A stretch of DNA of 64,000 bases. Source: Candidatus Woesearchaeota archaeon. GTDB lineage: Archaea; Nanobdellota; Nanobdellia; Pacearchaeales; GW2011-AR1. The translations under genes were made by a program, and so were the position numbers. Below the pieces are notes generated by a model that searched no databases, was not told the DNA's origin, and saw only the letters and a program-made list of their open reading frames with translations. The stretch lies in the NCBI GenBank assembly GCA_964362915.1, contig CAYIGH010000001.1, positions 24,056-88,055 of the forward strand. Direction: 5' to 3'. Positions 501 to 64,000 of this stretch are shown piece after piece; positions within the stretch are counted from its first letter, which is position 1; each line of letters opens with the position of its first letter.

Positions 501-550
501 ATTAAAAATCGAAAACGAAACTTTAAATATCTTTATAAATTGGATTTTAT

Positions 551-723
551 GATCCCATAGCTCAGCCCGGTTTAGAGCACCGCTCTTATAAGACTATGGT
601 TCGTTGGAACTGTATTTTCAAGCTAAGAAGATTTAGAAAGTCTTCAAGCAAAGCAAGGGTGTTAAACACACTCTTCAAAGCTAAGAAAGGCGGGGGTCCG
701 GAGTTCAAATCTCCGTGGGATCA
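551..723 (+). tRNA. tRNA with apparent UAU anticodon (tRNA-Ile-like), carrying a ~97-nt intron at the canonical 37/38 position (approx 591-687)
   Basis: Acceptor GATCCCA pairs with TGGGATC and the discriminator is A. D-arm is GCTC-AGCCCGGTTTA-GAGC. Anticodon stem CCGCT/GGCGG pairs only after removing the insert. Loop is CTTATA|A, T-arm is CGGAG-TTCAAAT-CTCCG, and no CCA is encoded. Confidence 0.55.
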
Positions 724-1662
724 TCTCTTGCAAAAAACCAAGGCATATTCTTCTTCAGGATCTTTTATTAATTCCACATTGTCAAAATACATGTCACAGA
801 AGTCTCTTAATTCATCAGCATATAATTTATATTGAAACGCCACAATGATCTCGTCTCCTTTTTCTAATTGTACTTTTTTATTTTTCTGCTCGATTGTTTT
901 ATTTACTTTTATCTTATAGTATGCCTCCAACCTATTATGGGCGAATCTTGCATTATACTCTACTTCTTTGTCTTTGAAGCCAAGTTCTTTCATTAGATAT
1001 ATAAGCCATTCATTGAATAATGGGTGTTTGTATGTTTCTAAATTCGCAAACCTCTCGCCTTTCCTTATGCCGTTCCCTATTAATAAAACATCTCCTGGAA
1101 GCATAGACCTGCTCAAGTTGAATAGGTAATCATTAATATCAAAGCTGGCCAAAAGTGATCCAAGAAGAAGGAAAACATTTTTTTGGTATTTGTTGTTCCT
1201 TAATGCTGCTCCTATCTCATCTAGGCTCTTGAAATCTTTTGAAATTCTAGAAGCATAATCAATTATATTAAGAAAATTTTCTTTTTTTACATTTTCTAGA
1301 GCCAGTTTTACCAAGTATTCATTAACATTAATAGGGCAATATCTTAATTTTATTTCTTGAGGCAATTCTTTTATTATTGCTATCGCTTTTTCGCCGTTTG
1401 TGGTTCCCATATCTATTAGATTAAACTCGCAGTCACTTACACATTTAATAAAGCTTTTAATGTTCTCTTTTAGTAATTTTTTTTCTATGTCTATAACTAT
1501 TGCTTTATATCTAGGATGCTCACTTAGTCTTAGATATGCCTCTGCCATCTCTTTATTTATATATCTAAATGATCTGTCTGAAATATCCCAGATATTCACG
1601 CTATTTTCTACAGAATGCCCTTTCTTTATCAGCTCTTTAAAGAGTATTTCTTTCATTAGCAT
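721..1662 (-). CDS. SAM-dependent methyltransferase, EgtD-like (Methyltransf_33 family)
   Basis: 313-aa ORF. Motifs LIDMGTTNGEKA, FLLLGSLLASFD and LPGDVLLIGNGIRKG align to the EgtD-type histidine N-methyltransferase signature blocks. Confidence 0.6.
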   Translation of the reverse strand: MLMKEILFKELIKKGHSVENSVNIWDISDRSFRYINKEMAEAYLRLSEHPRYKAIVIDIEKKLLKENIKSFIKCVSDCEFNLIDMGTTNGEKAIAIIKELPQEIKLRYCPINVNEYLVKLALENVKKENFLNIIDYASRISKDFKSLDEIGAALRNNKYQKNVFLLLGSLLASFDINDYLFNLSRSMLPGDVLLIGNGIRKGERFANLETYKHPLFNEWLIYLMKELGFKDKEVEYNARFAHNRLEAYYKIKVNKTIEQKNKKVQLEKGDEIIVAFQYKLYADELRDFCDMYFDNVELIKDPEEEYALVFCKR

Positions 1663-1767
1663 ATTATATACATACTTTTTAACTTTTTAGTCTTTTCTAT
1701 TTTATTATGCCTTCTTTTTGTTTTTGAACAGGAAGGTTTAAAAGTGAATTCAATTTTAGTTTGATAT

Positions 1768-1932
1768 GCCCTTGTAGTCTAGAAGCCAAGGACGCGGCCC
1801 TTTCGCGGGGCAAGGAAACCTTCAACTCTTATGAGATTGAAGTTTTTCCTTAACCATCAACCTTCCTCTAAAATAGGATGTCGATGACCTCGAAGAACGG
1901 CCGAAACCCGGGTGCGAATCCCGGCAGGGGCA
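1768..1932 (+). tRNA. tRNA-Glu (anticodon UUC) with a ~92-nt intron at 37/38 (approx 1806-1897); T-loop TGCGAAT is noncanonical at position 55
   Basis: Acceptor GCCCTTG pairs with CAGGGGC (one G-U) and the discriminator is A. D-stem is GTCT/GGAC. Anticodon stem CGGCC/GGCCG is perfect only after excising 1806-1897. Loop is C-T-TTC-G, T-stem CCGGG/CCCGG, variable loop 4 nt. Confidence 0.6.
1919..1932. repeat. Copy 1 of the 14-nt GC-rich core CCCGGCAGGGGCAT (3' T-stem plus acceptor strand of tRNA-Glu)
   Basis: Exact 14-mer shared with 5071-5084, and 13 of 14 shared with 6274-6287. The background is AT-rich. Confidence 0.8.
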
Positions 1933-2082
1933 TGCATGCGTAAATTGGGCTATGCCCCATGGAGCATAAACAAAATAAAATTCGAATCGTGGGTGGGGCA
2001 TGGAATGTTGGGAAGTTCAAATCCCATCCGAGGAAGTGAAAAACAAAAAATAAAAAGTCAGAGAATTTAATGAAAAAGTAAA

Positions 2083-2553
2083 ATGAAAAAGAAATTTGAA
2101 TTTTTTTCAACTATTGCAGTGATATTAATAATTTTAACAGCTCTTGTGGATGTTACCCTATCTAATGTAGAAGAAGACTATCAGAATGAAATGTTAGATT
2201 TAATCCTTAAGGTAACAGTATTATATAATGATATGGTTTTGGCCCATAATGGAACTCCTTTGACCTTTGCTACAAGTACGCACGAAACTAACTTTGATGA
2301 AGTGGGAGTAGCTATAGGTTATAAAGAAGGAGAAGATACCTCAAGAATTTATGTTGTTGGAGCTAATTTAACAGCAGAACAAGTAGCTGGAGATATAAGG
2401 GACATTAAAGAAGAAAGAAGAGATAAATTATTCCTTATTAAAACATTAAAAACTCTTAAATGGATATTTGTGATTGCTTCTATTGTTTTATTACTTATCG
2501 CTATAAATAAAGGATTGCATAATATAAAATCCAACAATCAGCAAACTATTTAA
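2083..2553 (+). CDS. hypothetical membrane protein (N- and C-terminal TM helices)
   Basis: 156-aa ORF with hydrophobic segments at both ends. No recognisable family. Confidence 0.5.
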   Translation: MKKKFEFFSTIAVILIILTALVDVTLSNVEEDYQNEMLDLILKVTVLYNDMVLAHNGTPLTFATSTHETNFDEVGVAIGYKEGEDTSRIYVVGANLTAEQVAGDIRDIKEERRDKLFLIKTLKTLKWIFVIASIVLLLIAINKGLHNIKSNNQQTI

Positions 2554-2569
2554 ATCAAGTTTTATTATA

Positions 2570-2980
2570 TTGAACATGAAAAAAGAAATAATTATTGGAT
2601 TAGTTATTGGAATCATTGTAGGATTAATAATAGCTTTTATTTTGCCTATCTCTAATGTGATAAACAAGGAAGAGAAAACTATGACAAATGATGTCCCTTG
2701 GGAAAATATTGGTTATTTTTTAGTAGGTTTTGAGAATAGCGTTGAGGATGGAATAGAACTCTGGAAAACACATGAAATAACCTCTGCAAACTTTAGAATT
2801 AAAATAGATGGGAATCCAGGAACAATTTACATAAATGATTGTAGAGATGAATTTGAAAGGCTTAATTATCCTGCAGTAGAAAATGAGATTGGGAAACCAA
2901 TTAATTATTGTGGTATAACTCAAATTGGTGCTTACACGGATGGATATTTTGATTGTAAATGTTACTACCCACAAAAATAA
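2570..2980 (+). CDS. hypothetical secreted/membrane-anchored Cys-containing protein
   Basis: 136-aa ORF with an N-terminal TM/signal segment and a C-terminal Cys-rich region (CRDEF...CGITQ...CKC). Confidence 0.45.
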   Translation: MNMKKEIIIGLVIGIIVGLIIAFILPISNVINKEEKTMTNDVPWENIGYFLVGFENSVEDGIELWKTHEITSANFRIKIDGNPGTIYINDCRDEFERLNYPAVENEIGKPINYCGITQIGAYTDGYFDCKCYYPQK

Positions 2981-3100
2981 AAATCGGAGGAAAAACAAGA
3001 ATTAACTTGAAGTGACAACCCCCTCGCGATAACTTCTAAACAGAAAAATTTATAAATATTGGAATACCAATAATATTATTGGATAAACAATAATATTGAA

Positions 3101-3700
3101 ATGGTAGATGAAAATAAATTATCAGAAAATGAACTGAGAGTATTGAGTAGTTTTTTTCCGGAGGGAAAGGAAATAACAATAAAGATGATTCAGGAAAGAA
3201 CAAAATTATCTTATGAGCCCGCTCATAGAATAATAAAGCAATTACTTGAGAGAGAACTAGTTATTGAAAAGAAGTTTGGAAAGACTCTTGTTTATTCATT
3301 ATCTTTTTCAAAAGAAAAAATTAAAATTGGTTTTATCCTCTATGCAAATGAGAAAAAAGAGAGATTTGCAGAGAAATATGGAGTAATTTACAGAGCATTA
3401 TCGAAAATTAGCGAAGAAGATATTGATTTTTTAGCTGTCTTTGGCAGTTATTCGAAGGGGAATCCTACAAAAAAAAGTGATGTTGATGTGCTTTGTGTTA
3501 GTTCTAATAAGAATAAGGTTGAAAACGAAATAAAAGGATTAAGATATGAAACAAATATTGAATTTGCCCCTGTTGTAATATCAAAAACAGAGTTTGCAAA
3601 AATTAAAAATGAGAATAAACAATTTTGGAAGGATTTGGTGGACTATGGAATAATATTTAAGGGTTATGAACTATTTTACTATCATGCTTATTTAAAATGA
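3101..3700 (+). CDS. winged-HTH fused to a minimal nucleotidyltransferase (MNT/MntA-like antitoxin domain)
   Basis: The C-terminal half carries FGSYSKGNPTKKSDVDVLCV, the GS...DxD polymerase-beta-like NTase motif. The N-terminus looks like a wHTH. Confidence 0.6.
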   Translation: MVDENKLSENELRVLSSFFPEGKEITIKMIQERTKLSYEPAHRIIKQLLERELVIEKKFGKTLVYSLSFSKEKIKIGFILYANEKKERFAEKYGVIYRALSKISEEDIDFLAVFGSYSKGNPTKKSDVDVLCVSSNKNKVENEIKGLRYETNIEFAPVVISKTEFAKIKNENKQFWKDLVDYGIIFKGYELFYYHAYLK

Positions 3701-4218
3701 TGAAATCAATAAACTTTTACATAAAAAGAGAACTCCTAATTAGAGATGAGACTGTTAAAATTTTAGCTAATGAATATCTAACCAAATCTAAAAATAATCT
3801 TATTACGTTGAGAATATTAGATGAACTCCAAGATGACAAAGTGTTTAGAAAAAAGTATAATATTCCTAATGATTATTCAACTTATGAGTGGGTTGTAATC
3901 TGTGGATATTACGCCATGTATACTGCCGCAATTTCTTTACTAGCTAAGATCGGTTATAGAAGTAAGAATCATACAGCAACTTTATGTGTCTTAGAAGAAT
4001 TTTTTGTCAAAAAGAAAATTCTAGATGAAGATATTTTGCTGTTGCTCAAATCGGCAATGTTCCAAAAAGAAGAAATTGAAAAGTTATCTGATGCAAGACA
4101 TAAAAGAGAGATAGCTCAGTACAGTATTACAAAACAAACAACAAAATCAATTGCAGAAAAAATAAAAAAAGATGCTTATGATTTTATCAACAAATGTGAG
4201 GAGATAATTAAACAATAG
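3697..4218 (+). CDS. putative HEPN-like helical protein paired with the upstream MNT (toxin-antitoxin-like module)
   Basis: Start overlaps the MNT stop by 4 nt (ATGA). The 173-aa helical protein is the right size for a HEPN partner. No canonical Rx4-6H motif is evident, so the call rests on context. Confidence 0.35.
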   Translation: MMKSINFYIKRELLIRDETVKILANEYLTKSKNNLITLRILDELQDDKVFRKKYNIPNDYSTYEWVVICGYYAMYTAAISLLAKIGYRSKNHTATLCVLEEFFVKKKILDEDILLLLKSAMFQKEEIEKLSDARHKREIAQYSITKQTTKSIAEKIKKDAYDFINKCEEIIKQ

Positions 4219-4235
4219 AAGGGAAAATTAAGAAT

Positions 4236-4460
4236 ATGAATGAATCTTGTAAAACTTGTCGCAAAGAGTTTAATTCTGGAATTTGGTTAGCTCCAGAATT
4301 TGCAGATGAAAAGGTTCTTTTGTTCTGCTCTGAGAAATGTAAAGAGAAGTACCTTAAAATGAAACTTAATAGGATAAGAACACAATATCCTAGACACTAT
4401 AACAGGATAAAAGAGGGAAAGGTCAAGAGTATTTATAGCGAGGTTATGAAAAATGAATGA
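4236..4460 (+). CDS. small zinc-finger protein (CxxC...CxxxC)
   Basis: 74 aa with CKTCRKEF...CSEKCKEKY. Confidence 0.4.
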   Translation: MNESCKTCRKEFNSGIWLAPEFADEKVLLFCSEKCKEKYLKMKLNRIRTQYPRHYNRIKEGKVKSIYSEVMKNE

Positions 4461-4938
4461 TAAGGATAAACAAATTAAAGATGCGATTCGAAGTATGAAA
4501 GAGTTTGAAATGGCTTGGCAGGAATATTTCGAAGATAAGCCAGAGCCAGAAAATGATGAAGATGAGAAAAAAGAGCAGGAAGAATTTCATCATTGGTATA
4601 ATCATGTAAGAAAGCAAAGCGATACTGGAAAAACTCCTGCTGAAATGTATAAGGAGATTTATGGAAAAGAACCCCCTAAAAACCCAACAGAAATAAGCAG
4701 AATGATGAATTTTGAATGGGATGAATATACTGACGAAGAAGAAATTAATCCTTTAGCTAGATATTGTCCAGAGTGTGATGATTGGGGGCTTATAGTTACT
4801 GAAGATCCTAATGTATATGAATGTGAGATTTGTGGTTCAATCTGGAAAAGATTAAAACCACTAAATGATGGGACTAGAAACATGATTAATATGCCTGAAA
4901 AGTTGAAGAAGTCAATAAAAACTAGAAAAATAAAGTGA
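4453..4938 (+). CDS. zinc-ribbon domain protein, acidic N-terminus
   Basis: 161 aa with YCPECDDWG...YECEICGS, a four-Cys ribbon. Start overlaps the previous stop. Confidence 0.4.
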   Translation: MNDKDKQIKDAIRSMKEFEMAWQEYFEDKPEPENDEDEKKEQEEFHHWYNHVRKQSDTGKTPAEMYKEIYGKEPPKNPTEISRMMNFEWDEYTDEEEINPLARYCPECDDWGLIVTEDPNVYECEICGSIWKRLKPLNDGTRNMINMPEKLKKSIKTRKIK

Positions 4939-5070
4939 TTTCATTAATAATCATATTCACAAAGAGAGGAAAAAGCAAGAAGATGGCTTGAAGGGCAAAT
5001 CTCTCCTGAGGCATGGAACTAAAATATCATGCCCATATGGAGCATTGTCCAAAAAATGGCAAAGGCCACC

Positions 5071-5084
5071 CCCGGCAGGGGCAT
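5071..5084. repeat. Copy 2 of CCCGGCAGGGGCAT (direct repeat of the tRNA-Glu 3' end); candidate att-site remnant
   Basis: Exact match to 1919-1932, same orientation, lying in a 250-nt noncoding GC-rich stretch. Confidence 0.7.
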
Positions 5085-5187
5085 TCGCGCTAAAGACCAT
5101 AGGTTTGAGAGACATTCTACTTCATATATTCCTTACGTGAAAGAAACATAGGGAAAGGAAAGAGTCTTGAAGTTTTTGCAACATATT

Positions 5188-5325
5188 ATGGAGGATTATC
5201 AAGACACTTTATCAAAATATAATGGAAAGTGTGAAATCTGTGGAAAAGACACATGGAAAGGAAAGAAGTTGTGTTTGAAGTGTTACAAAGACAGAAGACC
5301 TAATAAAATACTGAAAAATCAGTAA
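5188..5325 (+). CDS. small zinc-ribbon protein (45 aa), not in the ORF track
   Basis: Translates to MEDYQDTLSKYNGKCEICGKDTWKGKKLCLKCYKDRRPNKILKNQ, with two CxxC pairs. Confidence 0.3.
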   Translation: MEDYQDTLSKYNGKCEICGKDTWKGKKLCLKCYKDRRPNKILKNQ

Positions 5326-5517
5326 TGTTACTGACAGAACAATAAAAAATATATACTTGAATAATCTAAATTTAAAATGGATGAATTAATCGGAATTATT
5401 GAGGATAAAGGGGATAGCGTGAAAGAAATTAAAGAACTAAGGAAAAAATTATCTAATGAATTTAATCGAAAAGAAAAGGGCAGAAAAACCTAAATATGTC
5501 TATTCTTTAATCCGTTC

Positions 5518-5859
5518 ATGATAAAAAATCATTCCGAAGAGGTGAAGAAACTAATTAATCAATACAAAAAGAAAATCGTCTTTGGAAAAGACATAGATTT
5601 TTTGATTAAAAGAATCAAAGTCTCAAAAGAAGAGATCGAGAAGGAAATACTAGAGTGTAAAAATCTCGTCTTAGCAGAAAAACAAATTAAAGACGGAGAA
5701 ACGAGATATGCTTTGTTTTTCACCTATAGCAAAAGAAAGGGAAGAAAATACGTGGTAACGTTTAGAGATAAGAATATAAGAATCATAACGATATTTCTGT
5801 TAGGTAGAAAAACCCTCAAAAGATATAAGAAAAAAGGTTTAAATACAAGGAGTAACTAA
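5518..5859 (+). CDS. hypothetical protein, possible DUF4258-like partner of the downstream DUF2283 gene
   Basis: 113-aa basic protein immediately upstream (8-nt gap) of a DUF2283-like ORF. The pairing is contextual only. Confidence 0.35.
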   Translation: MIKNHSEEVKKLINQYKKKIVFGKDIDFLIKRIKVSKEEIEKEILECKNLVLAEKQIKDGETRYALFFTYSKRKGRKYVVTFRDKNIRIITIFLLGRKTLKRYKKKGLNTRSN

Positions 5860-5866
5860 ATCTAAC

Positions 5867-6232
5867 ATGAAAGAACATAGATTTAATTATGATAATGTAA
5901 GTGACGTTTTGTATATTCAAAATGTCGTGAAAGATGTAGAGGAAAGTGTAGAGTTTTCTGAAGACATTGTTTTGGACTTAGACAAAAACGGAAATGTTAT
6001 TGGAGTAGAGATATTTTATGCTAGTGAATTTCTTGGTTTATTCAATAAAGAAATAAATAGAGAGTTTTTAGAAAACCTAAAAGAAGCATATATTGAATAC
6101 AGAGATTTTAGAAATATCTGGTTTGTTGTGTTAATGTTACAATCTAAAGATAAACAAATATCTCAGCCGTTGCCACCACTAAGAAAATCCGAGTATGTTA
6201 ACCCAATAGTTCAATATTTAAAAGCACAATAA
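5867..6232 (+). CDS. DUF2283-like protein
   Basis: N-terminus DVLYIQNV...VLDLDKNGNVIGVEI matches the DUF2283 signature (D.L.I......D.D..G.V.GIEI). Confidence 0.5.
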   Translation: MKEHRFNYDNVSDVLYIQNVVKDVEESVEFSEDIVLDLDKNGNVIGVEIFYASEFLGLFNKEINREFLENLKEAYIEYRDFRNIWFVVLMLQSKDKQISQPLPPLRKSEYVNPIVQYLKAQ

Positions 6233-6273
6233 AAATAATTCTCTCCCTCATAAATGTACTAAACTGGTCTAAG

Positions 6274-6287
6274 CTCGGCAGGGGCAT
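6274..6287. repeat. Copy 3 (CTCGGCAGGGGCAT) of the tRNA-Glu 3' end core
   Basis: 13/14 identity with the two other copies, same orientation, in an intergenic position. Confidence 0.6.
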
Positions 6288-6680
6288 GATATCTTTTTGA
6301 TGAATTTAGTGGGCATACAAAAGGCATACAAGTTATTTATAAGAATAACTCGCCTTGTTAAATCATGAAAATGTCTGTCACATACAAAACGAATCATGTT
6401 TATGTTTTACTTATGATAACTTTCAAAAAAGAGGGTAAAGAAGTTAATATTCCGATTCCATTGACAATCGGTTTAGGATATAAAGAACCAAAAAAAGATG
6501 TTTTGGTTTATAATTAATCACACTAAAACACAGGGGAAAAACAAAGTAGAAACTTCTTTAAATAGGGCTAAAAAATTTAATGAGGAGGTTAGAAAAATTT
6601 TATAATGTTGTAGTAATAAACTTAAATAATTTAGACAATAAATTCCCACAGTTTAAAAACTGTAGTTTCCTTATTAGAGT

Positions 6681-6911
6681 ATGAAAAAAATAAGAGTTAA
6701 TATAACTGTAGATAAGGATTTGCTGAATAGAGCCAAAACAAAATTGCAGCTGTTCGGAGGGAAATTAAGCACTTTATTTAATGCGTTTCTTTCTGATTTT
6801 GTTAATACATTGGGAAAAGACGCCTCAAGTGGATATAAAATTTTGCAAAAGAAGATGGATGATCTTGAACAAAGATTAATAAAACTAGAAAATAAATATA
6901 GCAGGTTATGA
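6681..6911 (+). CDS. small ribbon-helix-helix-like protein (putative antitoxin/DNA-binding)
   Basis: 76 aa. N-terminus RVNITVDKDLLNRAK is typical of RHH/CopG-type antitoxins. Confidence 0.35.
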   Translation: MKKIRVNITVDKDLLNRAKTKLQLFGGKLSTLFNAFLSDFVNTLGKDASSGYKILQKKMDDLEQRLIKLENKYSRL

Positions 6912-7206
6912 CAGGCAAGATCTCCTTATTAGAACTAAAAAGACGATTATGTAAAGGCCTAGAATAAATGGATTGTGAAAAATAATTATACCTAAAAGAG
7001 AAGATTTTACTTCATAGTTAGCTCCCTTTTCAATTGGTATTTTAATAAGATAAGAAAAAATTAGAAGAATAAAGATTCCTAAGAGCAGTTTCATCTTTGC
7101 CTTCATTGTTCAATTAATGTATTCTTGTATATAATTTTATCTAAATAATAATTTTATGCAGAAATGTTTATAAAGTCTTTTTTATAATAGTGCTTATAAT
7201 TAAAAA

Positions 7207-7392
7207 ATGGTAAAGTGCAGTTTTTGTAAAAAAGATATTGGAGAGGACTCTGTGTTTGAAGTATGCCAACCATGCGGACATAGGGTCTGGGGAGAAAAGA
7301 TGTTTAAAGCAATAAAAGGAAATATGGAAAAAGCGAGAGAAATTGGGGATCTATATCAAGGCTCTGTTAGTGATGACTTCAAGCCCGCATAA
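7207..7392 (+). CDS. small zinc-ribbon protein
   Basis: 61 aa with CSFCKKD...CQPCGH. Confidence 0.35.
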   Translation: MVKCSFCKKDIGEDSVFEVCQPCGHRVWGEKMFKAIKGNMEKAREIGDLYQGSVSDDFKPA

Positions 7393-7423
7393 CCTTTATA
7401 AACTAAGTCTTTTAGTTATTTCT

Positions 7424-7684
7424 ATGCTGAAAAGAAAAAAACCACGGACGAGAGGAAAAATCTCATTTAGTGATTACTTTCAAACATTTAAATCTGGAGA
7501 TAGAGTAGCTGTAGCCAGAGAGATTAGTGTACCATTTGGATATTCTAAAAGGGTTCAGGGAAGAACAGGAAGCGTTATAAAAAAACAAGGCGAAGCTTAT
7601 TATGTTGAGATAAATGACATTAAAAAAAAGAAGTACTATTTCATCAAACCAATTCATTTAAGAATGATAAAGGGAGAAAGATGA
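7424..7684 (+). CDS. rpl21e: 50S ribosomal protein L21e
   Basis: MLKRKKPRTRGKISFSDYFQTFKSGDRVAV...GRTGSV...HLRMIKGE matches archaeal L21e. The ORF track frame starts earlier (7343); an internal ATG at 7424 is the likely start. Confidence 0.75.
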   Translation: MLKRKKPRTRGKISFSDYFQTFKSGDRVAVAREISVPFGYSKRVQGRTGSVIKKQGEAYYVEINDIKKKKYYFIKPIHLRMIKGER

Positions 7685-7980
7685 TAATTAATAAAAAGCC
7701 TTTAACAATGGAAGAAGTTGCTGTATACATAAAAAATGCAAAAGAGAGCCAGCCCTTAAATGATTATCTAAAGAAATTTACGAAACTTTCCTTAGAAAAA
7801 GCCAATAAAATTAAAGAGTCTATTGCTGCATTGAACAATCCTAAAATTAAAGATGGGCATATTGTTAAGATAGTAGACTTCCTCCCGAAAGATCAAGAAG
7901 ATGTTAATAAAATTCTTATAGACACCAGTTTAAATGAAGAGGAATCTCGCGCTATCCTTGAAATTATTAAGAAAGACTGA
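7681..7980 (+). CDS. rpoF: DNA-directed RNA polymerase subunit F (Rpo4)-like
   Basis: 99-aa acidic protein in the conserved archaeal L21e-RpoF-DUF655 arrangement. Start overlaps the L21e stop. Confidence 0.55.
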   Translation: MIINKKPLTMEEVAVYIKNAKESQPLNDYLKKFTKLSLEKANKIKESIAALNNPKIKDGHIVKIVDFLPKDQEDVNKILIDTSLNEEESRAILEIIKKD

Positions 7981-7982
7981 AA

Positions 7983-8522
7983 ATGATGGAAAAAGATGAC
8001 TATGCAATTGTTCTAGATTACTTACCCTATGGCTACCCTATGAGCGGAAAGCCGATGCCTATAGCTCAAGCCATAGGCGAGAAAACATTGGTGCTGCTTG
8101 AGCTAATACCTAGAAGGGGGGCAGTTATAGTCCAAAAAGAAAAGGTTTATATAGGCCAAGATAAGAGAGATAAGATACATTATATAGTGGGAAGAATCCC
8201 ATTTGACAAGATCACAGAGACTGCGAAGATCCAACTGCAGGAGTTTGTAACCGGACTAGTTGCGGAGCAGGAAAAGAAATTTGTTGATTTCTTTAATAAA
8301 GCTCAGGCAATTAACACGCGCCTACATCAAATTGAACTTTTGACTGGATTTGGACAAAAGCATACTCAGGAAATAATAAAGACCAGAGAAGAAAAAGCTT
8401 TTGAGTCTTTTGAAGACATAAAGAAACGCGTGCCTAATATCCCGGATCCTAAAAAGGCCATAGAACGCAGGATTTTTGATGAACTTGCTCAAAAACAGAG
8501 ATATCACTTATTTGTAAAGTAA
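7983..8522 (+). CDS. DUF655 family RNA-binding protein
   Basis: N-terminus YAIVLDYLPYGYP is the DUF655 hallmark. Positional conservation after rpoF. Confidence 0.7.
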   Translation: MMEKDDYAIVLDYLPYGYPMSGKPMPIAQAIGEKTLVLLELIPRRGAVIVQKEKVYIGQDKRDKIHYIVGRIPFDKITETAKIQLQEFVTGLVAEQEKKFVDFFNKAQAINTRLHQIELLTGFGQKHTQEIIKTREEKAFESFEDIKKRVPNIPDPKKAIERRIFDELAQKQRYHLFVK

Positions 8523-8523
8523 A

Positions 8524-9033
8524 ATGACAGAAACAATAAAGATTCAGAAGAAAAACTCTGATATAGAAGCAGAACCGGAAATATTGGTAAGAATCTTAGG
8601 ATGCGACATTCCTGGTTCGAAAAATTTGTATCTTGGCTTGACTTATATTAAGGGAATATCGTGGGCTGTTTCTAATGCTATTTGTATCAAGTTGCATATT
8701 CCAAAATCGAAAAAAATATATGAATTATCAAAGGAAGAAATTCAACATATAGAAGAGTTTCTAAGAAAATTGCCTATTCCTGAATTTTTGAAGAACAGAA
8801 GATTTGACCAGGAAACAGGTGAAACTATACATTATTATGGTACTGATTTGGACATAAAGAAAGAGTTTGATATAAAGAGGCTAATAAAGATGAAGAGCTA
8901 TAGGGGAATAAGACATGCTACAGGACAGCCGGTAAGGGGGCAAAAAACAAGGTCACATTTTAGAAACAGAAAAAATAAAAAAACTGCTGGAATAAAAAAG
9001 AAGGAGAAAACTATAGAGGGTAAAGAAAAATGA
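8524..9033 (+). CDS. rps13: 30S ribosomal protein S13 (uS13)
   Basis: RILGCDIPGSK...YRGIRH..GQPVRGQKTRS matches S13 motifs. Confidence 0.85.
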   Translation: MTETIKIQKKNSDIEAEPEILVRILGCDIPGSKNLYLGLTYIKGISWAVSNAICIKLHIPKSKKIYELSKEEIQHIEEFLRKLPIPEFLKNRRFDQETGETIHYYGTDLDIKKEFDIKRLIKMKSYRGIRHATGQPVRGQKTRSHFRNRKNKKTAGIKKKEKTIEGKEK

Positions 9034-9542
9034 AGAGAAAAAAAAGATTATACAGTAGACCAATGAAGCTATATCAAAAGAGCAGAATAGAAGAAGAGAA
9101 TGTGCTAGTTAAAAAATATGGACTAAAGAATAAAAAAGAAATCTGGAAGACACTAGCCAGGATAAATTATTTTAGAAAGAGGGCTATGGCTCTTACCAAA
9201 GTGTCTGATGAAGAACAAAGAGTATTTTTTAGTAAATTGAAAAATATTGGACTAGACATTAAATCTATTCCAGATGTTTTAGCATTAAAAATTGAAGATC
9301 TATTAAGAAGGAGATTGCCTAGTATTGTTGTTTATAAAGGAATTGCTAATACTGTTAAGCAAGCCAGGCAAATGGTTGTTCATAAGAGGATTAGAGTTCA
9401 CGATAAGATTATCGATTCTCCTAGTTATATAGTGCCTGTTTATTTGGAAGATAAGATAACTATAAAAGAAAAAGCTCCTAAAAAATCTGAAACATTTAAA
9501 TCAGAAAATGACAGTGCTGTTCAGGCAGAGGCAGGCATCTAA
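9030..9542 (+). CDS. rps4: 30S ribosomal protein S4 (uS4)
   Basis: 170 aa. RLYSRP...KKYGLKNKKEIWK...S4 RNA-binding domain (QARQMVVHKRIRV). Confidence 0.85.
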   Translation: MKRKKRLYSRPMKLYQKSRIEEENVLVKKYGLKNKKEIWKTLARINYFRKRAMALTKVSDEEQRVFFSKLKNIGLDIKSIPDVLALKIEDLLRRRLPSIVVYKGIANTVKQARQMVVHKRIRVHDKIIDSPSYIVPVYLEDKITIKEKAPKKSETFKSENDSAVQAEAGI

Positions 9543-9991
9543 TGGAAAATATTGCAGAAGAAATAACTATGGGAGAAAGTAGAGAAAGGGAGGAAAAAGC
9601 GAGGAAAAAGGAGGAGAAAGATAGAATAGGAATCGCCTATGTTTATAGTTCTCCAAATAATACTATTGTTCATATTACTGATTTAGCTGGCAATACTTTG
9701 TCTCGTGTCAGTGGCGGAATGATAACTAAACATTCTAGATTGAAGTCGAACCCTACAATAGCAATGTTTGCTGCAAAGAAAGCTGCTGAAAGGCCGCGAG
9801 ATCTTGGGATTACAAGTTTATATATCAGAATGAGAGCCCAAACAGGGAGTTCGGGTCATGGCCCTGGAGCCCATGCTAGTATAAAAACGTTGGGAAAAGA
9901 AGGATTTAAGATTATAAGTGTTTTAGATACTACAAAAGTTCCTAGAGGAGGACCAAAAAAGAAAGGTGGCCGCAGAGGGAGGAGAGTGTAA
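9542..9991 (+). CDS. rps11: 30S ribosomal protein S11 (uS11)
   Basis: IAYVYSSPNNTIVHITDLAGNT...GSSGHGPGA...PRGGPKKKGGRRGRRV. Confidence 0.85.
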   Translation: MENIAEEITMGESREREEKARKKEEKDRIGIAYVYSSPNNTIVHITDLAGNTLSRVSGGMITKHSRLKSNPTIAMFAAKKAAERPRDLGITSLYIRMRAQTGSSGHGPGAHASIKTLGKEGFKIISVLDTTKVPRGGPKKKGGRRGRRV

Positions 9992-11507: not shown

Positions 11508-11894
11508 TTACCTGTATTGTGGCCGTATTTTTAGAGATACAGAGTATAGTATGAAAGAAAAGAATACTCCTATTGAATCTAAAAGAACATCAGAAAAAGA
11601 ACTACTTCTTCCTGGAACGAAATACTGATGAAATTCATCTAGAAGGCTATATGTAAATGATAATATGATTGCTAATGAAATTGAATCTTTATTTTTCCCC
11701 TTAACTAAAGATATTAAGAGAAAGAATGTCAAGAGAAAGAATATAATTATATGATAAATTATTGTGTTTGTTCCTGTGCCTCCTAGTTTAGGGGTTTTTT
11801 CGAATGATAGAGATGAAAAATAGAATATTATAAGTCCAATTGCTACTGTAATTGTCCAAGATATTTTATTATGCTTTTCAAACCATTTTATCAT
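11508..11894 (-). CDS. VanZ-like family membrane protein
   Basis: 128 aa, 3-4 TM helices, with LDEFHQYFVPGRSSSFSDVLLDSIG (VanZ motif). Confidence 0.6.
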   Translation of the reverse strand: MIKWFEKHNKISWTITVAIGLIIFYFSSLSFEKTPKLGGTGTNTIIYHIIIFFLLTFFLLISLVKGKNKDSISLAIILSFTYSLLDEFHQYFVPGRSSSFSDVLLDSIGVFFSFILYSVSLKIRPQYR

Positions 11895-11936
11895 ATTTTC
11901 GATAGATTTATTTAGGATATAAATTTATGCGATATA

Positions 11937-25482: not shown

Positions 25483-25583
25483 ATATGGGTTATTTTAAAA
25501 CCTATATTATAGATTAATTTATTATAGAAAACTATTTATATAGCGGTTCTCTATCAATATGGGTTATTTTAAAACCTATATTA
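25483..25583. repeat. Two direct copies of a 27-nt element ATATGGGTTATTTTAAAACCTATATTA (25483-25509 and 25557-25583), 74 nt apart, upstream of the regulator gene
   Basis: Exact duplication read directly. The second copy abuts the ATG of the 25587 ORF. Confidence 0.8.
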
Positions 25584-25586
25584 AAG

Positions 25587-25946
25587 ATGGCGCACAAATC
25601 AAAGACAAGGGAAATAACTATCGTCGAGAATGAAGGCGCTTTTAGTTTATTTTTCAAAAAATTCTCTGGAGAAAAAAAGGAATATGATTTTGAAGGTATT
25701 TCTGCTTTAAGAAGATTATTGTCAAATGAAAAAGCTCGATTGCTTCATACTATTAAGACTGAAAAACCTTTGTCTATTTATGAATTGGCTAAAATTTTGA
25801 ATAGGGATATAAAAGCGGTAAAAAAAGATATAAAACTTATGGAAAGATTTGGATTTATTGATTTAATTTATGAAAAAAAAGGCAAAAGAGAAAGACTTAG
25901 GCCCATAATTGTGGTTGATTCTATTTACATTAATCTAAAGATTTAA
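25587..25946 (+). CDS. putative winged-HTH transcriptional regulator
   Basis: 119 aa. LSIYELAKILNRDIKAVKKDIKLMERFGFIDL is an HTH-like segment. Confidence 0.45.
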   Translation: MAHKSKTREITIVENEGAFSLFFKKFSGEKKEYDFEGISALRRLLSNEKARLLHTIKTEKPLSIYELAKILNRDIKAVKKDIKLMERFGFIDLIYEKKGKRERLRPIIVVDSIYINLKI

Positions 25947-62611: not shown

Positions 62612-63001
62612 ATTACTTTTTAATATTGCTCCTAAATCTAGTAGAGACTATATATACTGTTGCTGCTGAGATTATTCCTAAACTATTAAGAAATAAATCG
62701 AAAAGAGAAGGAACTCTGCCTGGGACAAATGACTGGTGGATTTCATCCGAAATGCCATAAATAATAGCAAGTATTATTGATAAAAAGGCCAGATTTATCT
62801 TTTTTCCTTTTATTAAAGATATAGATAAAAAAATGCGAGTAAGAAAAACATTATTATATGATATAATAATGCCCTATACCCTATTCCCCTGCTGCCCCCA
62901 TAAGACTCGAATGTTAATGAAGAAATATAAAATATTGCAGCAGCTATTATAACTGTAATTGCCCAAGAGATTTTATTATGCTTCTCAAACCAAGCTACCA
63001 T
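62612..63001 (-). pseudogene. disrupted paralog of the VanZ-like gene at 11508-11894 (N-terminal 62 aa in one frame, VanZ motif segment in another)
   Basis: ORF 62813-63001 starts MVAWFEKHNKISWAITV, near-identical to the start of 11508-11894. Reverse translation of ~62612-62800 in a different frame gives ...GISDEIHQSFVPGRVPSLFDLFLNSLGII (VanZ motif). Stop codons lie between the two frames. Confidence 0.5.
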
Positions 63002-64000
63002 TTTCCCTCTTTATTTCATATATGAACACGTCTTGCTTTATGTCTAAAAGATTAAATGTTGCGCCTTCTAAAGTCTTTGTGCGCTTTATATCCTGTTGGC
63101 CCGTAGAGAAATCTATTTTAGTATCCATGAATTTTATTTCCCACCCTGCAACTTGACCGTTATTGCCATAAGCTCTAGCCATCCAGTCAGGAGTTCCTGT
63201 CTGAGAAAATGAGATAAGTAAATATCTTGCATAGGGAAAATTCTTTAATCCATTAATAAAATCATCAAGGGGAAGTTGTTCCCCCGCCCCTGTCCAGCCA
63301 GCGATCTTATCAGGCTGTACAACATTCCTTTCTGCGTAATAAATAACTTGGGGAACTGCGACACTGATTATAACATCTTCTTGATTAGATAATTCCTTAA
63401 GATATATACTGGCTTGCCTAATGCCCTCGAAAGATCCCCCTTTATTTTTTATAATTGCATCTGCCTGAATAATTTCGTAATATCCGCCAAGAATAATTAG
63501 AATAAAAAGTGCAGCATATGCAAAGTACTTATTGTATTTTCTAAAAAAGTCCGTTATAAAGATTGAAGATCTGGCTATACAGACAAAAGAGCCCAATGCT
63601 AAAGGAAAGAACCATCTTCCTTCTCCAAAAACATCCTGAGTTCTTATTATTAATATAAAGAAAGCTAATGTTATCAAAATTGTAAATAGATTGAATAAAT
63701 CTGCCCTTACCGTTGTTTTTGTTAATTTTTTTAAATAGCCCAAAGATAAAAATATATTGGCTATTAATATGATGAAGCCTATCCAGTATAAGTAAAGAAG
63801 GATGCTTGGAATTGAGGTTGTTGAGCTGAAATAGGCAGGGAATACTCCTAAAGGAAGCAGATTTATTTTATTTTCAGGATGAAAATAGGCTCCAGACACT
63901 CCCTGTATCCTAGAAATAAATATTGACTTTTCCGCAAGAAAGAAAAGTAGGACACCTAGACTTAATGCTATCCAATTATATTTATCCTTTATAAGCTCTG
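62985..64000 (-). CDS. polytopic membrane protein, likely GT-C type glycosyltransferase; N-terminus lies beyond the window edge
   Basis: The reading frame stays open upstream of the listed start to position 64000 (hydrophobic ...LGVLLFFLAEKSIFISRIQGVSGAYF...). C-terminal soluble domain. Confidence 0.45.
   Translation of the reverse strand, partial: ELIKDKYNWIALSLGVLLFFLAEKSIFISRIQGVSGAYFHPENKINLLPLGVFPAYFSSTTSIPSILLYLYWIGFIILIANIFLSLGYLKKLTKTTVRADLFNLFTILITLAFFILIIRTQDVFGEGRWFFPLALGSFVCIARSSIFITDFFRKYNKYFAYAALFILIILGGYYEIIQADAIIKNKGGSFEGIRQASIYLKELSNQEDVIISVAVPQVIYYAERNVVQPDKIAGWTGAGEQLPLDDFINGLKNFPYARYLLISFSQTGTPDWMARAYGNNGQVAGWEIKFMDTKIDFSTGQQDIKRTKTLEGATFNLLDIKQDVFIYEIKRENGSLV

What the first reader, a model, noticed from the sequence alone, without database searches (positions are those of the whole stretch)
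1933..5110. Permuted GC-rich motif blocks and T-loop-like fragments downstream of tRNA-Glu and near repeat copy 2
1925-2005 carries the blocks CCGGCAGGGGCAT, CCCCATGGAGCAT and GGGGCATGGAAT in that order. 5008-5084 carries GAGGCATGGAAC, GCCCATATGGAGCAT and CCCGGCAGGGGCAT, that is, the same blocks in the opposite order on the same strand. GGGGCAT/ATGCCCC segments can pair into hairpins (1926-1932 with 1952-1958; 5028-5033 with 5079-5084). Isolated T-loop-like motifs TTCGAATC (1981-1988) and GTTCAAATCC (2015-2024) follow the intact tRNA. This suggests partial tRNA copies or a family of small structured RNAs tied to the integration site.
Basis: seen in the sequence. Interest (0 to 1): 0.5.

Follow-up and report, generated by a model that had tools for sequence, protein, structure and literature searches.

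The report
Integration-site scars beside an archaeal tRNA-Glu
The "permuted" GC-rich blocks are the left and right attachment-site ends of an integrase-less mobile element inserted at the 3' end of a tRNA-Glu gene in a DPANN archaeon; this is an ordinary kind of feature in a little-studied lineage, not a small structured RNA.

Summary
The window comes from a DPANN archaeon (Nanoarchaeota/Pacearchaeota-like).

- **The tRNA and its repeats.** The intron-bearing tRNA-Glu(UUC) lies at 1768-1932. Its 3' end, (CC)CGGCAGGGGCAT, recurs exactly and directly at 5071-5084 and 6276-6287.
- **What the repeats bound.** They delimit segments of 3.15 kb and 1.2 kb. The cargo is MNT-HEPN, a DUF2283 pair and Zn-ribbon ORFs. 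There is no integrase, and the segments have no synteny in relatives.
- **The blocks are conserved element ends.** The left end (1934-2045: B, C and the T-loop-like motif) recurs in L100, L060, L150 and L156. The right end (4961-5084: C', B', CCACC+core) recurs in L100. It also recurs as the integrase-proximal arm of autonomous elements (L162, L165, L170) that encode a ~470-aa tyrosine integrase.
- **Why the order looks permuted.** attL is core plus right arm, and attR is left arm plus core. The two arms carry similar tRNA-3'-end-like 21-mers.
- **Direct evidence for the breakpoint.** Contig pairs with ~99.4-99.5% identical host flanks diverge 2-13 nt past the tRNA end (L150/L151, L096/L102).
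- **No RNA support.** There is no Rfam match, no excess folding stability and no covariation.

Verdict: a tandem array of decayed integrative elements, that is, a new member of a known kind. Interest is low to moderate.

The parts
1768..1932 (+). tRNA-Glu(UUC) gene with a ~92-95-nt intron (about 1806-1897). It is the integration target (attB side of attL). A TTTAAAAG promoter box lies ~27 nt upstream.
   Evidence: Rfam tRNA 41.7 bits. ARAGORN -i gives tRNA-Glu(ttc) i(41,92). The cloverleaf fold has z -4.1.
1920..1933 (+). Core copy 1 (block A), CCCGGCAGGGGCAT. It comprises the 3' T-stem strand, the 3' acceptor strand, the discriminator A and one more base.
1934..2045 (+). Left arm of element 1 (the element-derived part of attL).
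   Evidence: Left-end profile (nhmmer, built from window, L060, L100): self-match 2e-31. Matches outside the training set: L150 6e-9, L156 5.5e-6. blastn finds 96% identity over 53 nt to L060. SW score versus L100 is 97 against shuffle mean 15.8, sd 2.4. Alignment A1.
1952..1967 (.). Block B, ATGCCCCATGGAGCAT. It is a near-palindrome whose reverse complement differs at 2 positions. Its right half is a GGRGCAT heptamer 34 nt after that of the tRNA end.
   Evidence: It is conserved as ATGCCCCATTGGAGCAT in L060 and L150 (twice there) and as ATGCCCCATTGGGGAT in L100.
1981..2006 (+). Block C, TTCGAATCGTGGGTGGGGCAT plus GGAAT.
   Evidence: It is identical or nearly identical in L060, L100 and L150.
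2015..2036 (+). The GTTCAAATCC... motif. In L100 and L060 it is the left half of a hairpin or palindrome (TTCAAATCCGC-GTT-GCGGATTTGAA). In the window the right half is degenerate.
2083..4938 (+). Cargo of element 1. Two membrane ORFs (2083-2553, 2570-2980), wHTH-nucleotidyltransferase MNT (3101-3700) with HEPN (3697-4218), and Zn-ribbon ORFs (4236-4460, 4453-4938). No integrase.
   Evidence: Pfam, PHROGs and NCBIfam. The MNT-HEPN-Zn module is homologous to L125, which also lies downstream of a tRNA-Glu. No synteny with 35 relatives.
4961..5070 (+). Right arm of element 1 (the element-derived part of attR). It contains C' (GGGCAAATCTCTCCTGAGGCAT+GGAAC, 4993-5019), B' (ATGCCCATATGGAGCAT, 5029-5045) and CCACC (5066-5070).
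   Evidence: It is homologous to the integrase-proximal arms of L162 and L170 (SW 52 and 48 against shuffle mean ~14.5, sd ~2.3). It is also homologous to the L100 attR (SW 47). Alignments. Right-end profile (nhmmer, built from window, L100, L162, L170, L165; the other strong hits are near-identical copies of these): window self-match 5.9e-29; only clear out-of-sample match L150 2.5e-11.
5071..5084 (+). Core copy 2 (block A'), CCCGGCAGGGGCAT. It is the displaced tRNA-end fragment that closes element 1.
5085..6275 (+). Element 2 (1.2 kb). It holds a Zn-ribbon ORF (5167-5325), a putative toxin (5518-5859, weak BrnT-like hit) and a DUF2283 protein (5867-6232).
   Evidence: Pfam. The pair is homologous to genes ~1.9 kb downstream of the tRNA-Glu in L070.
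6276..6287 (+). Core copy 3, CGGCAGGGGCAT (18-nt repeat 6271-6288, 89% identical to the tRNA end).
6288..6330 (+). Remnant resembling the left arm of a second element family (GATATCTTTTTGATGAATTTAGTGGGCAT, compare AATACCATTTTGGCAAATTCATGGGGTG in L036). The right limit of the array lies somewhere between 6288 and ~6680.
   Evidence: By-eye comparison, which is weak evidence. Synteny with relatives resumes at about 6650-6680.

Best explanation
The blocks are the attachment-site ends of mobile elements that integrated, one after another, into the 3' end of tRNA-Glu(UUC) of a DPANN archaeon.

**Mechanism (inferred from the anatomy).**
1. A tyrosine integrase of a circular element recombines the element's attP with the tRNA end. 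The shared core is CCCGGCAGGGGCAT.
2. The tRNA is regenerated at the left junction (attL).
3. A displaced copy of the core marks the right junction (attR).

**Why the order looks permuted.** Both arms of the element carry further degenerate copies of the last ~21 nt of the tRNA, namely B/C on the left and C'/B' on the right, spaced about 31-39 nt apart. Reading outward to inward at each junction therefore gives A-B-C on the left and C'-B'-A' on the right.

**State of the window's elements.**
- Element 1 (1934-5084) has kept both arms but lost the integrase module.
- A second short element (5085-6287) and a third remnant follow it in tandem, as expected from accretion.
- The cargo, made of toxin-antitoxin-like pairs and small Zn-ribbon genes, is what survives.

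**Shown versus inferred.**
- Shown: the repeats, the homology of both arms to elements elsewhere, integrases next to the same arm in other genomes, and breakpoints at the tRNA end in population variants.
- Inferred: that the tRNA-like repeats in the arms are integrase-binding sites, the exact crossover point, and whether the integrase-less elements can still be moved in trans.
For: 1. **Repeats.** Three exact direct copies of the tRNA 3' end lie at 1922-1933, 5073-5084 and 6276-6287. Degenerate copies lie at 1985-2002 and 4998-5015.
2. **No synteny.** The interval 1934 to ~6650 has no synteny with 35 relatives. Synteny resumes at the 76-aa ORF and the L21e operon.
3. **An independent copy of the whole architecture.** L100 has tRNA-Glu, A-B-C-hairpin, 2.07 kb of different cargo (transglutaminase-like and NYN), then C'-B'-CCACCCC+core. 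Both arms are significantly similar to the window's (SW 97 and 47 against shuffle means ~16, sd ~2.5).
4. **Left arm elsewhere.** It is also found in L060 (96% over 53 nt), L150 and L156.
5. **Right arm next to integrases.** It is homologous to the arm that lies ~400 nt from a 466-473-aa tyrosine integrase gene (PF00589) in L162, L165 and L170.
6. **More integrases beside tRNA-Glu.** A second integrase type sits directly after tRNA-Glu in L096, L036, L095, L134, L051 and L042. In L134 the core recurs 5.7 and 6.7 kb downstream.
7. **Variant pairs.** L150/L151 are 99.35% identical over 927 nt and diverge 13 nt after the tRNA end. L096/L102 are 99.5% identical over 431 nt and diverge 2 nt after it.
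8. **Shared cargo.** Cargo modules of the window recur downstream of tRNA-Glu in L125 and L070.
9. **Arms travel with the element.** The B-C DNA is 96% identical between genomes whose flanking methyltransferases appear far more diverged by eye (L060 sequence; window homologs top out at 77%).
10. **Literature.** Archaeal integrases prefer tRNA 3' ends, integrate in tandem and often lose the integrase gene afterwards (PMC8371274). Integration leaves tRNA gene fragments (PMC9897764, PMC4383910).
Against: - No integrase or integrase fragment is detectable in the window (Pfam; tblastn).
- No 'empty site' version of this particular genome was found, because the window's own proteins are not on record. 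The insertion is therefore inferred from relatives.
- No free or circular attP was found. There were no exact matches in viral contigs.
- The far (tRNA-side) end of the integrase-bearing elements was not captured in the fetched loci.
- In L161 the integrase-proximal arm abuts the tRNA end in the opposite orientation. A simple single-orientation model does not predict this.
- TRF does not detect the ~34-nt spacing as a tandem repeat.
Confidence: 0.8

Rival explanations
1. Variant of the same idea with a different crossover point. The near-palindrome B would be the true recombination core. The target would be a pre-existing A-B-A' unit downstream of the tRNA, and the element's attP would be C'-B-C. 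Integration would then give A-B-C ... C'-B'-A'.
For: - L150 carries a 66-nt A-B1-A' unit with no cargo, followed by further B copies and C.
- B, and also CCACCCCC-GGCA-GGGGCAT, look like inverted heptamer pairs, as core sites of tyrosine recombinases do.
- Within each element, B and B' share their right halves: GGAGCAT in the window and GGGAT(TTGAA) in L100.
Against: - In the window A and A' are identical over 14 nt, whereas B and B' differ by an indel and a mismatch.
- L150 and L151 share identical host DNA up to the tRNA end and already differ in the A-to-B spacer. That spacer is therefore element DNA, not host DNA.
- L156 has the arm joined directly to the tRNA end without B.
Confidence: 0.12
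2. The blocks encode small structured or tRNA-like RNAs (or split or permuted tRNA pieces) that are expressed next to tRNA-Glu.
For: - B can pair with A or with C, and C' can pair with B'.
- C looks like a tRNA 3' end.
- DPANN relatives are known for unusual tRNA genes (my own knowledge, not tested here).
Against: - No Rfam hit other than the tRNA itself.
- ARAGORN finds nothing there.
- Folding z-scores range from -1.3 to -1.7.
- No compensatory changes in three homologs.
- The copies hold only the last ~21 nt of a tRNA, with no 5' T-stem strand, no anticodon arm and no promoter box of the kind seen before the real tRNAs.
Confidence: 0.04
3. The stacked tRNA-end copies are passive scars in the host chromosome left by many rounds of integration and imprecise loss. 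On this view they have no function in the element.
For: - Many loci carry cargo-less units of 62-124 nt bounded by core copies: L127 (six cores), L139, L105, L102, L130 and L154.
- Identity of the copies to the tRNA end varies from 72 to 89%.
Against: - The same arms, in the same order, recur at 90-96% identity in genomes whose neighbouring host genes appear far more diverged (by eye; not computed).
- They lie next to the integrase gene in autonomous elements.
- This pattern fits sequences that travel with the element, not neutral host scars.
Confidence: 0.04

Closest known systems
Archaeal integrative elements with an intact ('classical', non-suicidal) tyrosine integrase that target the 3' end of a tRNA gene, for example PYG1 in Pyrococcus yayanosii at tRNA-Gln and pT26-2-related plasmids of Methanococcales (PMC8371274, PMC9897764)
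   Same: - The tRNA is regenerated at one junction, and a direct-repeat fragment of its 3' end marks the other.
- Elements integrate in tandem.
- The integrase gene is often lost after integration.
- A PF00589 integrase lies next to the att arm in the autonomous relatives (L161, L162, L165, L170).
   Different: - The host lineage is DPANN (Nanoarchaeota/Pacearchaeota-like), which the 2021 review does not mention.
- The core is short, at 12-14 bp.
- Both arms hold stacked tRNA-3'-end-like 21-mers.
- The window's copies are tiny (3.15 and 1.2 kb) and have no integrase.
Tandem genomic islands at tRNA/tmRNA genes as catalogued by Islander (PMC4383910), and CIME or accretion arrays of integrative elements in Streptococcus (reviewed in PMC5704250; phage-ICE tandems in PMC13651849)
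   Same: - Several elements share one tRNA target, each closed by a displaced target fragment.
- Members without a recombinase are still flanked by attL and attR and could in principle be moved by a neighbour's integrase.
   Different: - Those systems are bacterial and conjugation-linked.
- Here no transfer or replication genes are identified in the window's elements, and trans-mobilisation is untested.
SSV-type ('suicidal') archaeal integrases, whose attP lies inside the int gene
   Same: They target a tRNA gene, tRNA-Glu being a frequent target in Sulfolobales (PMC8371274).
   Different: - No ORF spans any of the three core copies. Only 40-80-aa spurious ORFs do so.
- In relatives the integrase gene is intact and lies ~400 nt from the core.
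Integron gene cassettes with attC sites
   Same: Short, promoter-poor cassettes in one orientation carry toxin-antitoxin-like cargo and are separated by imperfectly palindromic recombination sites.
   Different: - The junctions show no R''/R' (RYYYAAC ... GTTRRRY) pairs on reading the sequence.
- There is no IntI-type integrase.
- The repeats derive from a tRNA end, and the platform is a tRNA gene.

Membership tests
tRNA-targeted integrative element / genomic island (tyrosine integrase type) | An intact, regenerated tRNA gene at one end | tested here: met
   tRNA-Glu(UUC) at 1768-1932. Rfam scores 41.7 bits, and ARAGORN finds it with an intron.
tRNA-targeted integrative element / genomic island (tyrosine integrase type) | A direct repeat of the tRNA fragment (displaced core) at the other end | tested here: met
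   CCCGGCAGGGGCAT lies at 1920-1933 and 5071-5084. CGGCAGGGGCAT lies at 6276-6287.
tRNA-targeted integrative element / genomic island (tyrosine integrase type) | An integrase gene inside the element | tested here: not met
   The window has none (Pfam; tblastn with three integrase types). The feature is met in homologous elements elsewhere (L161, L162, L165, L170, L096, L134). The window's elements are therefore filed as integrase-less derivatives.
tRNA-targeted integrative element / genomic island (tyrosine integrase type) | Presence/absence or replacement polymorphism with the breakpoint at the tRNA end | tested here: inconclusive
   This was not testable for the window's own genome. It is shown in related populations by L150/L151 and L096/L102. 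The island also lacks synteny in 35 relatives.
tRNA-targeted integrative element / genomic island (tyrosine integrase type) | Ends homologous to the att arms of autonomous members | tested here: met
   The right arm matches L162 and L170 (alignment). The left arm matches L100, L060 and L150.
Non-autonomous, cis-mobilisable integrative element (CIME-like) | Both att sites retained and no recombination module | tested here: met
   Both arms and both cores are present, with no integrase.
Non-autonomous, cis-mobilisable integrative element (CIME-like) | Excision or mobilisation in trans by a related integrase | not testable with these tools
   This needs an experiment, or read-level evidence of excised circles or empty sites.
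Structured small RNA / tRNA-like RNA | A match to a described RNA family, or a tRNA-like cloverleaf | tested here: not met
   Rfam E-value scans of 1650-2150 and 4900-6450 find only the tRNA. ARAGORN finds nothing.
Structured small RNA / tRNA-like RNA | Folding stability beyond composition, and covariation in homologs | tested here: not met
   z-scores are -1.66, -1.31 and -1.31. None of 25 predicted pairs shows a compensatory change, but only three sequences were available.
Split or permuted tRNA gene | A complementary 5' and 3' half (or a 3' half upstream of a 5' half) that together rebuild a cloverleaf | tested here: not met
   The copies contain only T-loop, 3' T-stem, 3' acceptor strand and discriminator. 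They lack a 5' T-stem strand, anticodon arm and D arm.
Integron cassette array | attC sites with R''/L''-L'/R' (GTTRRRY) and an IntI integrase with attI | tested here: not met
   No such motifs are seen at the junctions on reading the sequence. No integrase is present in the window.

The most novel reading that the evidence does not exclude
The tRNA-Glu locus of these DPANN archaea may work as a cassette platform. On this reading, short integrase-less units (from 66 nt up to ~3 kb) keep conserved arms built from stacked copies of the tRNA 3' end. A ~470-aa integrase encoded by a larger relative, which also carries its own tRNA-Glu(CUC), would move them in trans. The arm repeats would be integrase-binding sites that mimic the target, so that a single DNA-binding specificity serves both core and arm sites.
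Probability: 0.25. Interest if true: 0.5.

Novelty: new member of a known kind. Interest (0 to 1): 0.3.

Why it matters
- It explains a puzzling repeat pattern without invoking a new RNA.
- It marks 1934 to ~6300 as horizontally acquired DNA, which matters for annotating the toxin-antitoxin-like and Zn-ribbon genes there.
- It points to tRNA-Glu as a recurrent integration hot spot in Nanoarchaeota/Pacearchaeota-like DPANN archaea, whose mobile elements are poorly described.
- The loci gathered here give a starting set for defining att sites and host ranges of DPANN mobile elements: two integrase types, conserved arms, an element-borne tRNA-Glu(CUC), and restriction-modification, NYN and TA cargo.

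Tried and rejected
**RNA explanation, rejected.**
- Rfam gathering and E-value scans gave nothing beyond tRNAs.
- RNA folds of both sites were not significant.
- RNAalifold on three left ends showed no covariation.

**Searches that found nothing.**
- Exact-pattern scans of viral contigs for the tRNA end, the attR junction and block C gave zero hits each. No free attP was found.
- An exact look-up of the window's methyltransferase found nothing on record, so there is no same-species empty site.
- PHROGs, NCBIfam and Pfam on the island ORFs showed nothing viral and no recombinase.
- TRF did not detect the ~34-nt spacing as a tandem repeat, so that spacing is reported only as a description.

**Searches limited by the data.**
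- None of the 35 DUF655-anchored relatives has a tRNA-Glu within 10 kb. The right flank therefore gave no empty-site comparison.
- Profile searches (nhmmer) did not find a left-arm copy in the integrase-bearing loci. The elements appear to exceed the 10-kb flanks.

**Ideas considered and dropped.**
- SSV-type split integrase: no ORF crosses a core.
- IS or MITE ends: no terminal inverted repeats or transposase lie within 1934-6287. The DDE transposases seen in L060, L151 and L161 are separate insertions.
- CRISPR-like array: the repeats are too short and irregular.
- Integron attC sites: the motif is absent.

Full report
**What is in the sequence**

The tRNA upstream is a genuine tRNA-Glu(UUC) at 1768-1932 with a 92-95-nt intron. 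Default ARAGORN missed it, but Rfam scores it at 41.7 bits and ARAGORN finds it when introns are allowed. A second intron-bearing tRNA, tRNA-Ile(UAU), lies at 550-725.

The repeat finder groups five direct copies of the last 18 nt of the tRNA (AATCCCGGCAGGGGCATG), at 1917, 1985, 4998, 5068 and 6271. Three of them contain the exact 11-mer GGCAGGGGCAT, which occurs nowhere else in the 64 kb.

Statistically, the 14-mer shared by the two sites exceeds all 2000 shuffles. B versus B' is marginal, and the C/C' 12-mer alone is not significant.

**Organism and surroundings**

A conserved DUF655 gene at 7983-8522 finds 35 relatives, all Nanoarchaeota, Pacearchaeota or Woesearchaeota MAGs, the best at 84% identity. 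From about 6680 onward the window is a conserved operon (76-aa ORF, L21e, Rpb4-like, DUF655, S13, S4, S11, RpoD), and tblastx synteny with relatives starts there.

To the left, the arrangement tRNA-Ile, then a histidine-methyltransferase-like gene on the minus strand, then tRNA-Glu, is conserved in relatives.

The interval 1934 to ~6650 has no syntenic counterpart. It holds small plus-strand ORFs:
- two membrane proteins;
- an MNT nucleotidyltransferase with a HEPN protein;
- three Zn-ribbon proteins;
- a weak BrnT-like ORF with a DUF2283 protein.

It has no viral hallmark and no recombinase.

**Related loci**

One metagenome scan with the tRNA end (TKCGAATCCCGGCAGGGGCA) returned 120 loci, many of them DPANN tRNA-Glu genes. 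Four results bear on the finding.

1. *Extra core copies are common.* Extra direct copies of the core lie 45 nt to 6.7 kb downstream of tRNA-Glu in L058, L075, L094, L097, L099, L100, L102, L105, L127 (six copies), L130, L134, L139 and L154.

2. *L100 repeats the window's architecture with different cargo.* Its order is tRNA, core, B (ATGCCCCATTGGGGAT), C (TTCGAATCGTGGGCGGGGCA), hairpin, then 2.07 kb encoding a transglutaminase-like protein and a NYN protein, then C', B', CCACCCC and core.
   - With the core excluded, the left arms score 97 and the right arms 47 in local alignment. Shuffle means are about 16 with sd about 2.5 (alignments).
   - The left arm is also present in L060 (96% over 53 nt), L150 and L156.

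3. *Variant pairs from single populations place the breakpoint at the tRNA end.*
   - L150 and L151 are 99.35% identical over 927 nt and diverge 13 nt past the tRNA end.
   - L096 and L102 are 99.5% identical over 431 nt and diverge 2 nt past it. L096 then carries an integrase, and L102 carries a 124-nt unit closed by a 21-nt tRNA-end copy.

4. *The window's cargo recurs at the same kind of site.* The MNT-HEPN-Zn-ribbon module appears in L125, and the BrnT-like/DUF2283 pair in L070.

**Integrases**

Two related types sit next to these sites.
- A ~390-410-aa type lies directly after tRNA-Glu in L096, L036, L095, L134, L051 and L042. It has no Pfam hit of its own. It is 36% identical (E 8e-56) to the second type.
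- The second type is 466-473 aa and matches PF00589. It was first seen in L161 beside the same methyltransferase/tRNA-Glu pair as in the window.

Homologs of the second type were fetched with their contexts. They share a module:
- an RHH-like ORF of 48-60 aa;
- the integrase;
- two or three small ORFs;
- usually the element's own tRNA-Glu(CUC) gene;
- restriction-modification or NYN cargo.

About 400 nt from the integrase start lies a ~130-nt arm that aligns along its whole length with window 4961-5090. Pairwise scores are 52 and 48 against shuffle means of about 14.5, and the arm profile (nhmmer; the window is one of its five training sequences) matches at E values from 1e-28 to 1e-34.

In those autonomous elements the three blocks are clearer copies of the tRNA end:
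- GCAAATCCCGCGCGGGGCAT
- TTCGAATCCCCATATGGGCAT
- CCACCCCCGGCAGGGGCGT

In L165 the core is followed at once by a second element of the other integrase type, which is a tandem array like the window's. Neither integrase type gives a tblastn hit in the window.

**Interpretation**

Window 1934-5084 is an integrase-less derivative of this element family. It is flanked by the regenerated tRNA end (A) and the displaced core (A'). Segment 5085-6287 is a second short element closed by the third core. The 40 nt after that core resemble the left arm of the other element family, though this is weak by-eye evidence.

The 'opposite order' follows from junction geometry, with the core outermost and the element's arms inside. 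It also reflects the two arms carrying similar tRNA-3'-end-like 21-mers. The GGRGCAT heptamers end at 1933, 1967, 2001 and 2036 on the left and at 5014, 5045 and 5084 on the right. TRF does not call this a tandem repeat, so the spacing is descriptive only.

The arms are 90-96% identical between genomes whose host genes appear far more diverged (window homologs ≤77%; by eye for L060). They therefore travel with the element and are not neutral host scars. Whether they bind the integrase is an inference.

**Open points**

- The near-palindromic B blocks, and the cargo-less A-B-A' unit in L150, leave room for a variant model in which B is a crossover site. The exact identity of A and A', and the L150/L151 breakpoint, favour the tRNA-end core.
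- In L161 the integrase-proximal arm meets the tRNA end in the inverted orientation. This may reflect the near-symmetry of CCCCC-GGCA-GGGG and is unexplained.
- No free attP, no empty site for this genome, and no complete autonomous element with both ends were obtained.

**RNA hypothesis**

Nothing supports it. There is no Rfam match, folding is not beyond shuffles, and there are no compensatory changes. The 'T-loop-like' strings are the first bases of degenerate tRNA-end copies. In L100 and L060, GTTCAAATCC is half of a DNA palindrome.

**Comparison with what is known**

The pattern matches what is established for archaeal tyrosine-integrase elements:
- preference for tRNA 3' ends;
- regeneration of the tRNA;
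- tandem integration;
- loss of the integrase after integration (PMC8371274);
- tRNA gene fragments left as by-products (PMC9897764, PMC4383910);
- accretion arrays with non-autonomous members in bacteria (PMC5704250).

The 2021 review of archaeal tyrosine recombinases does not mention DPANN. The lineage and the arm layout are therefore new details, not a new kind of system. I rate it a new member of a known kind, with interest 0.3.

Noticed in passing
window 1913-1919 (T-loop of tRNA-Glu); also L047, L065, L150, L151, L156, L158-160, L161: The tRNA-Glu(UUC) T-loop reads UGCGAAU, with G at position 55 where U (pseudouridine 55) is nearly universal. The same change occurs in several related genomes, while other DPANN tRNA-Glu genes have UUCGAAU.
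   Followed up: partly
window 550-725 and 1806-1897: tRNA-Ile(UAU) and tRNA-Glu(UUC) carry long introns of 97 and 92-95 nt. The tRNA-Glu(UUC) genes of the closest relatives (L156, L161, L150) have no intron. tRNA-Glu(CUC) genes in L047 and L105 have long introns.
   Followed up: partly
L161, L165, L167, L169, L170-L172 (for example L165 4603-4676): Integrative elements with the ~470-aa integrase carry their own tRNA-Glu(CUC) gene a few hundred bases downstream of the integrase, while using a tRNA-Glu(UUC)-like core as attachment site.
   Followed up: partly
L127 (six cores), L139, L105, L099, L047, L102, L130, L154: Cargo-less units of 62-124 nt bounded by copies of the tRNA-Glu end occur, sometimes in tandem. 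One ~85-nt unit containing CTGACGGCAC...TTCAGACCGGCAGGGGCAT is shared by different genomes and by different tRNA-Glu isoacceptor genes.
   Followed up: partly
window 1735-1742, and the equivalent position in all related loci: A TTTAAAAG box sits at a fixed ~27 nt before the first base of tRNA-Glu, and ATG precedes the mature 5' end. This suggests very short or absent leaders.
   Followed up: no
window 25483-25514 and 25557-25588: Two 32-nt direct repeats are 97% identical and lie 74 nt apart.
   Followed up: no
window 11800-11897 and 62907-63004: A 98-nt stretch is 76% identical between two distant places. At 11508-11894 it falls in the start of a small membrane-protein gene on the minus strand, so these are probably paralogs.
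   Followed up: no
L060 (flipped coordinates 4580-5506 and 6029-9697): An IS6/IS240-like DDE transposase lies next to the B-C arm. Further on, a 1222-aa CDC48-like AAA ATPase carries a large insertion that looks like an intein.
   Followed up: no
L161 (unflipped 5109-5173 relative to the tRNA-Glu at 5189-5263): The integrase-proximal arm abuts the tRNA-Glu 3' end in the orientation opposite to that in the window and L100. The core CCCCC-GGCA-GGGG is nearly symmetric, which might allow both orientations.
   Followed up: partly
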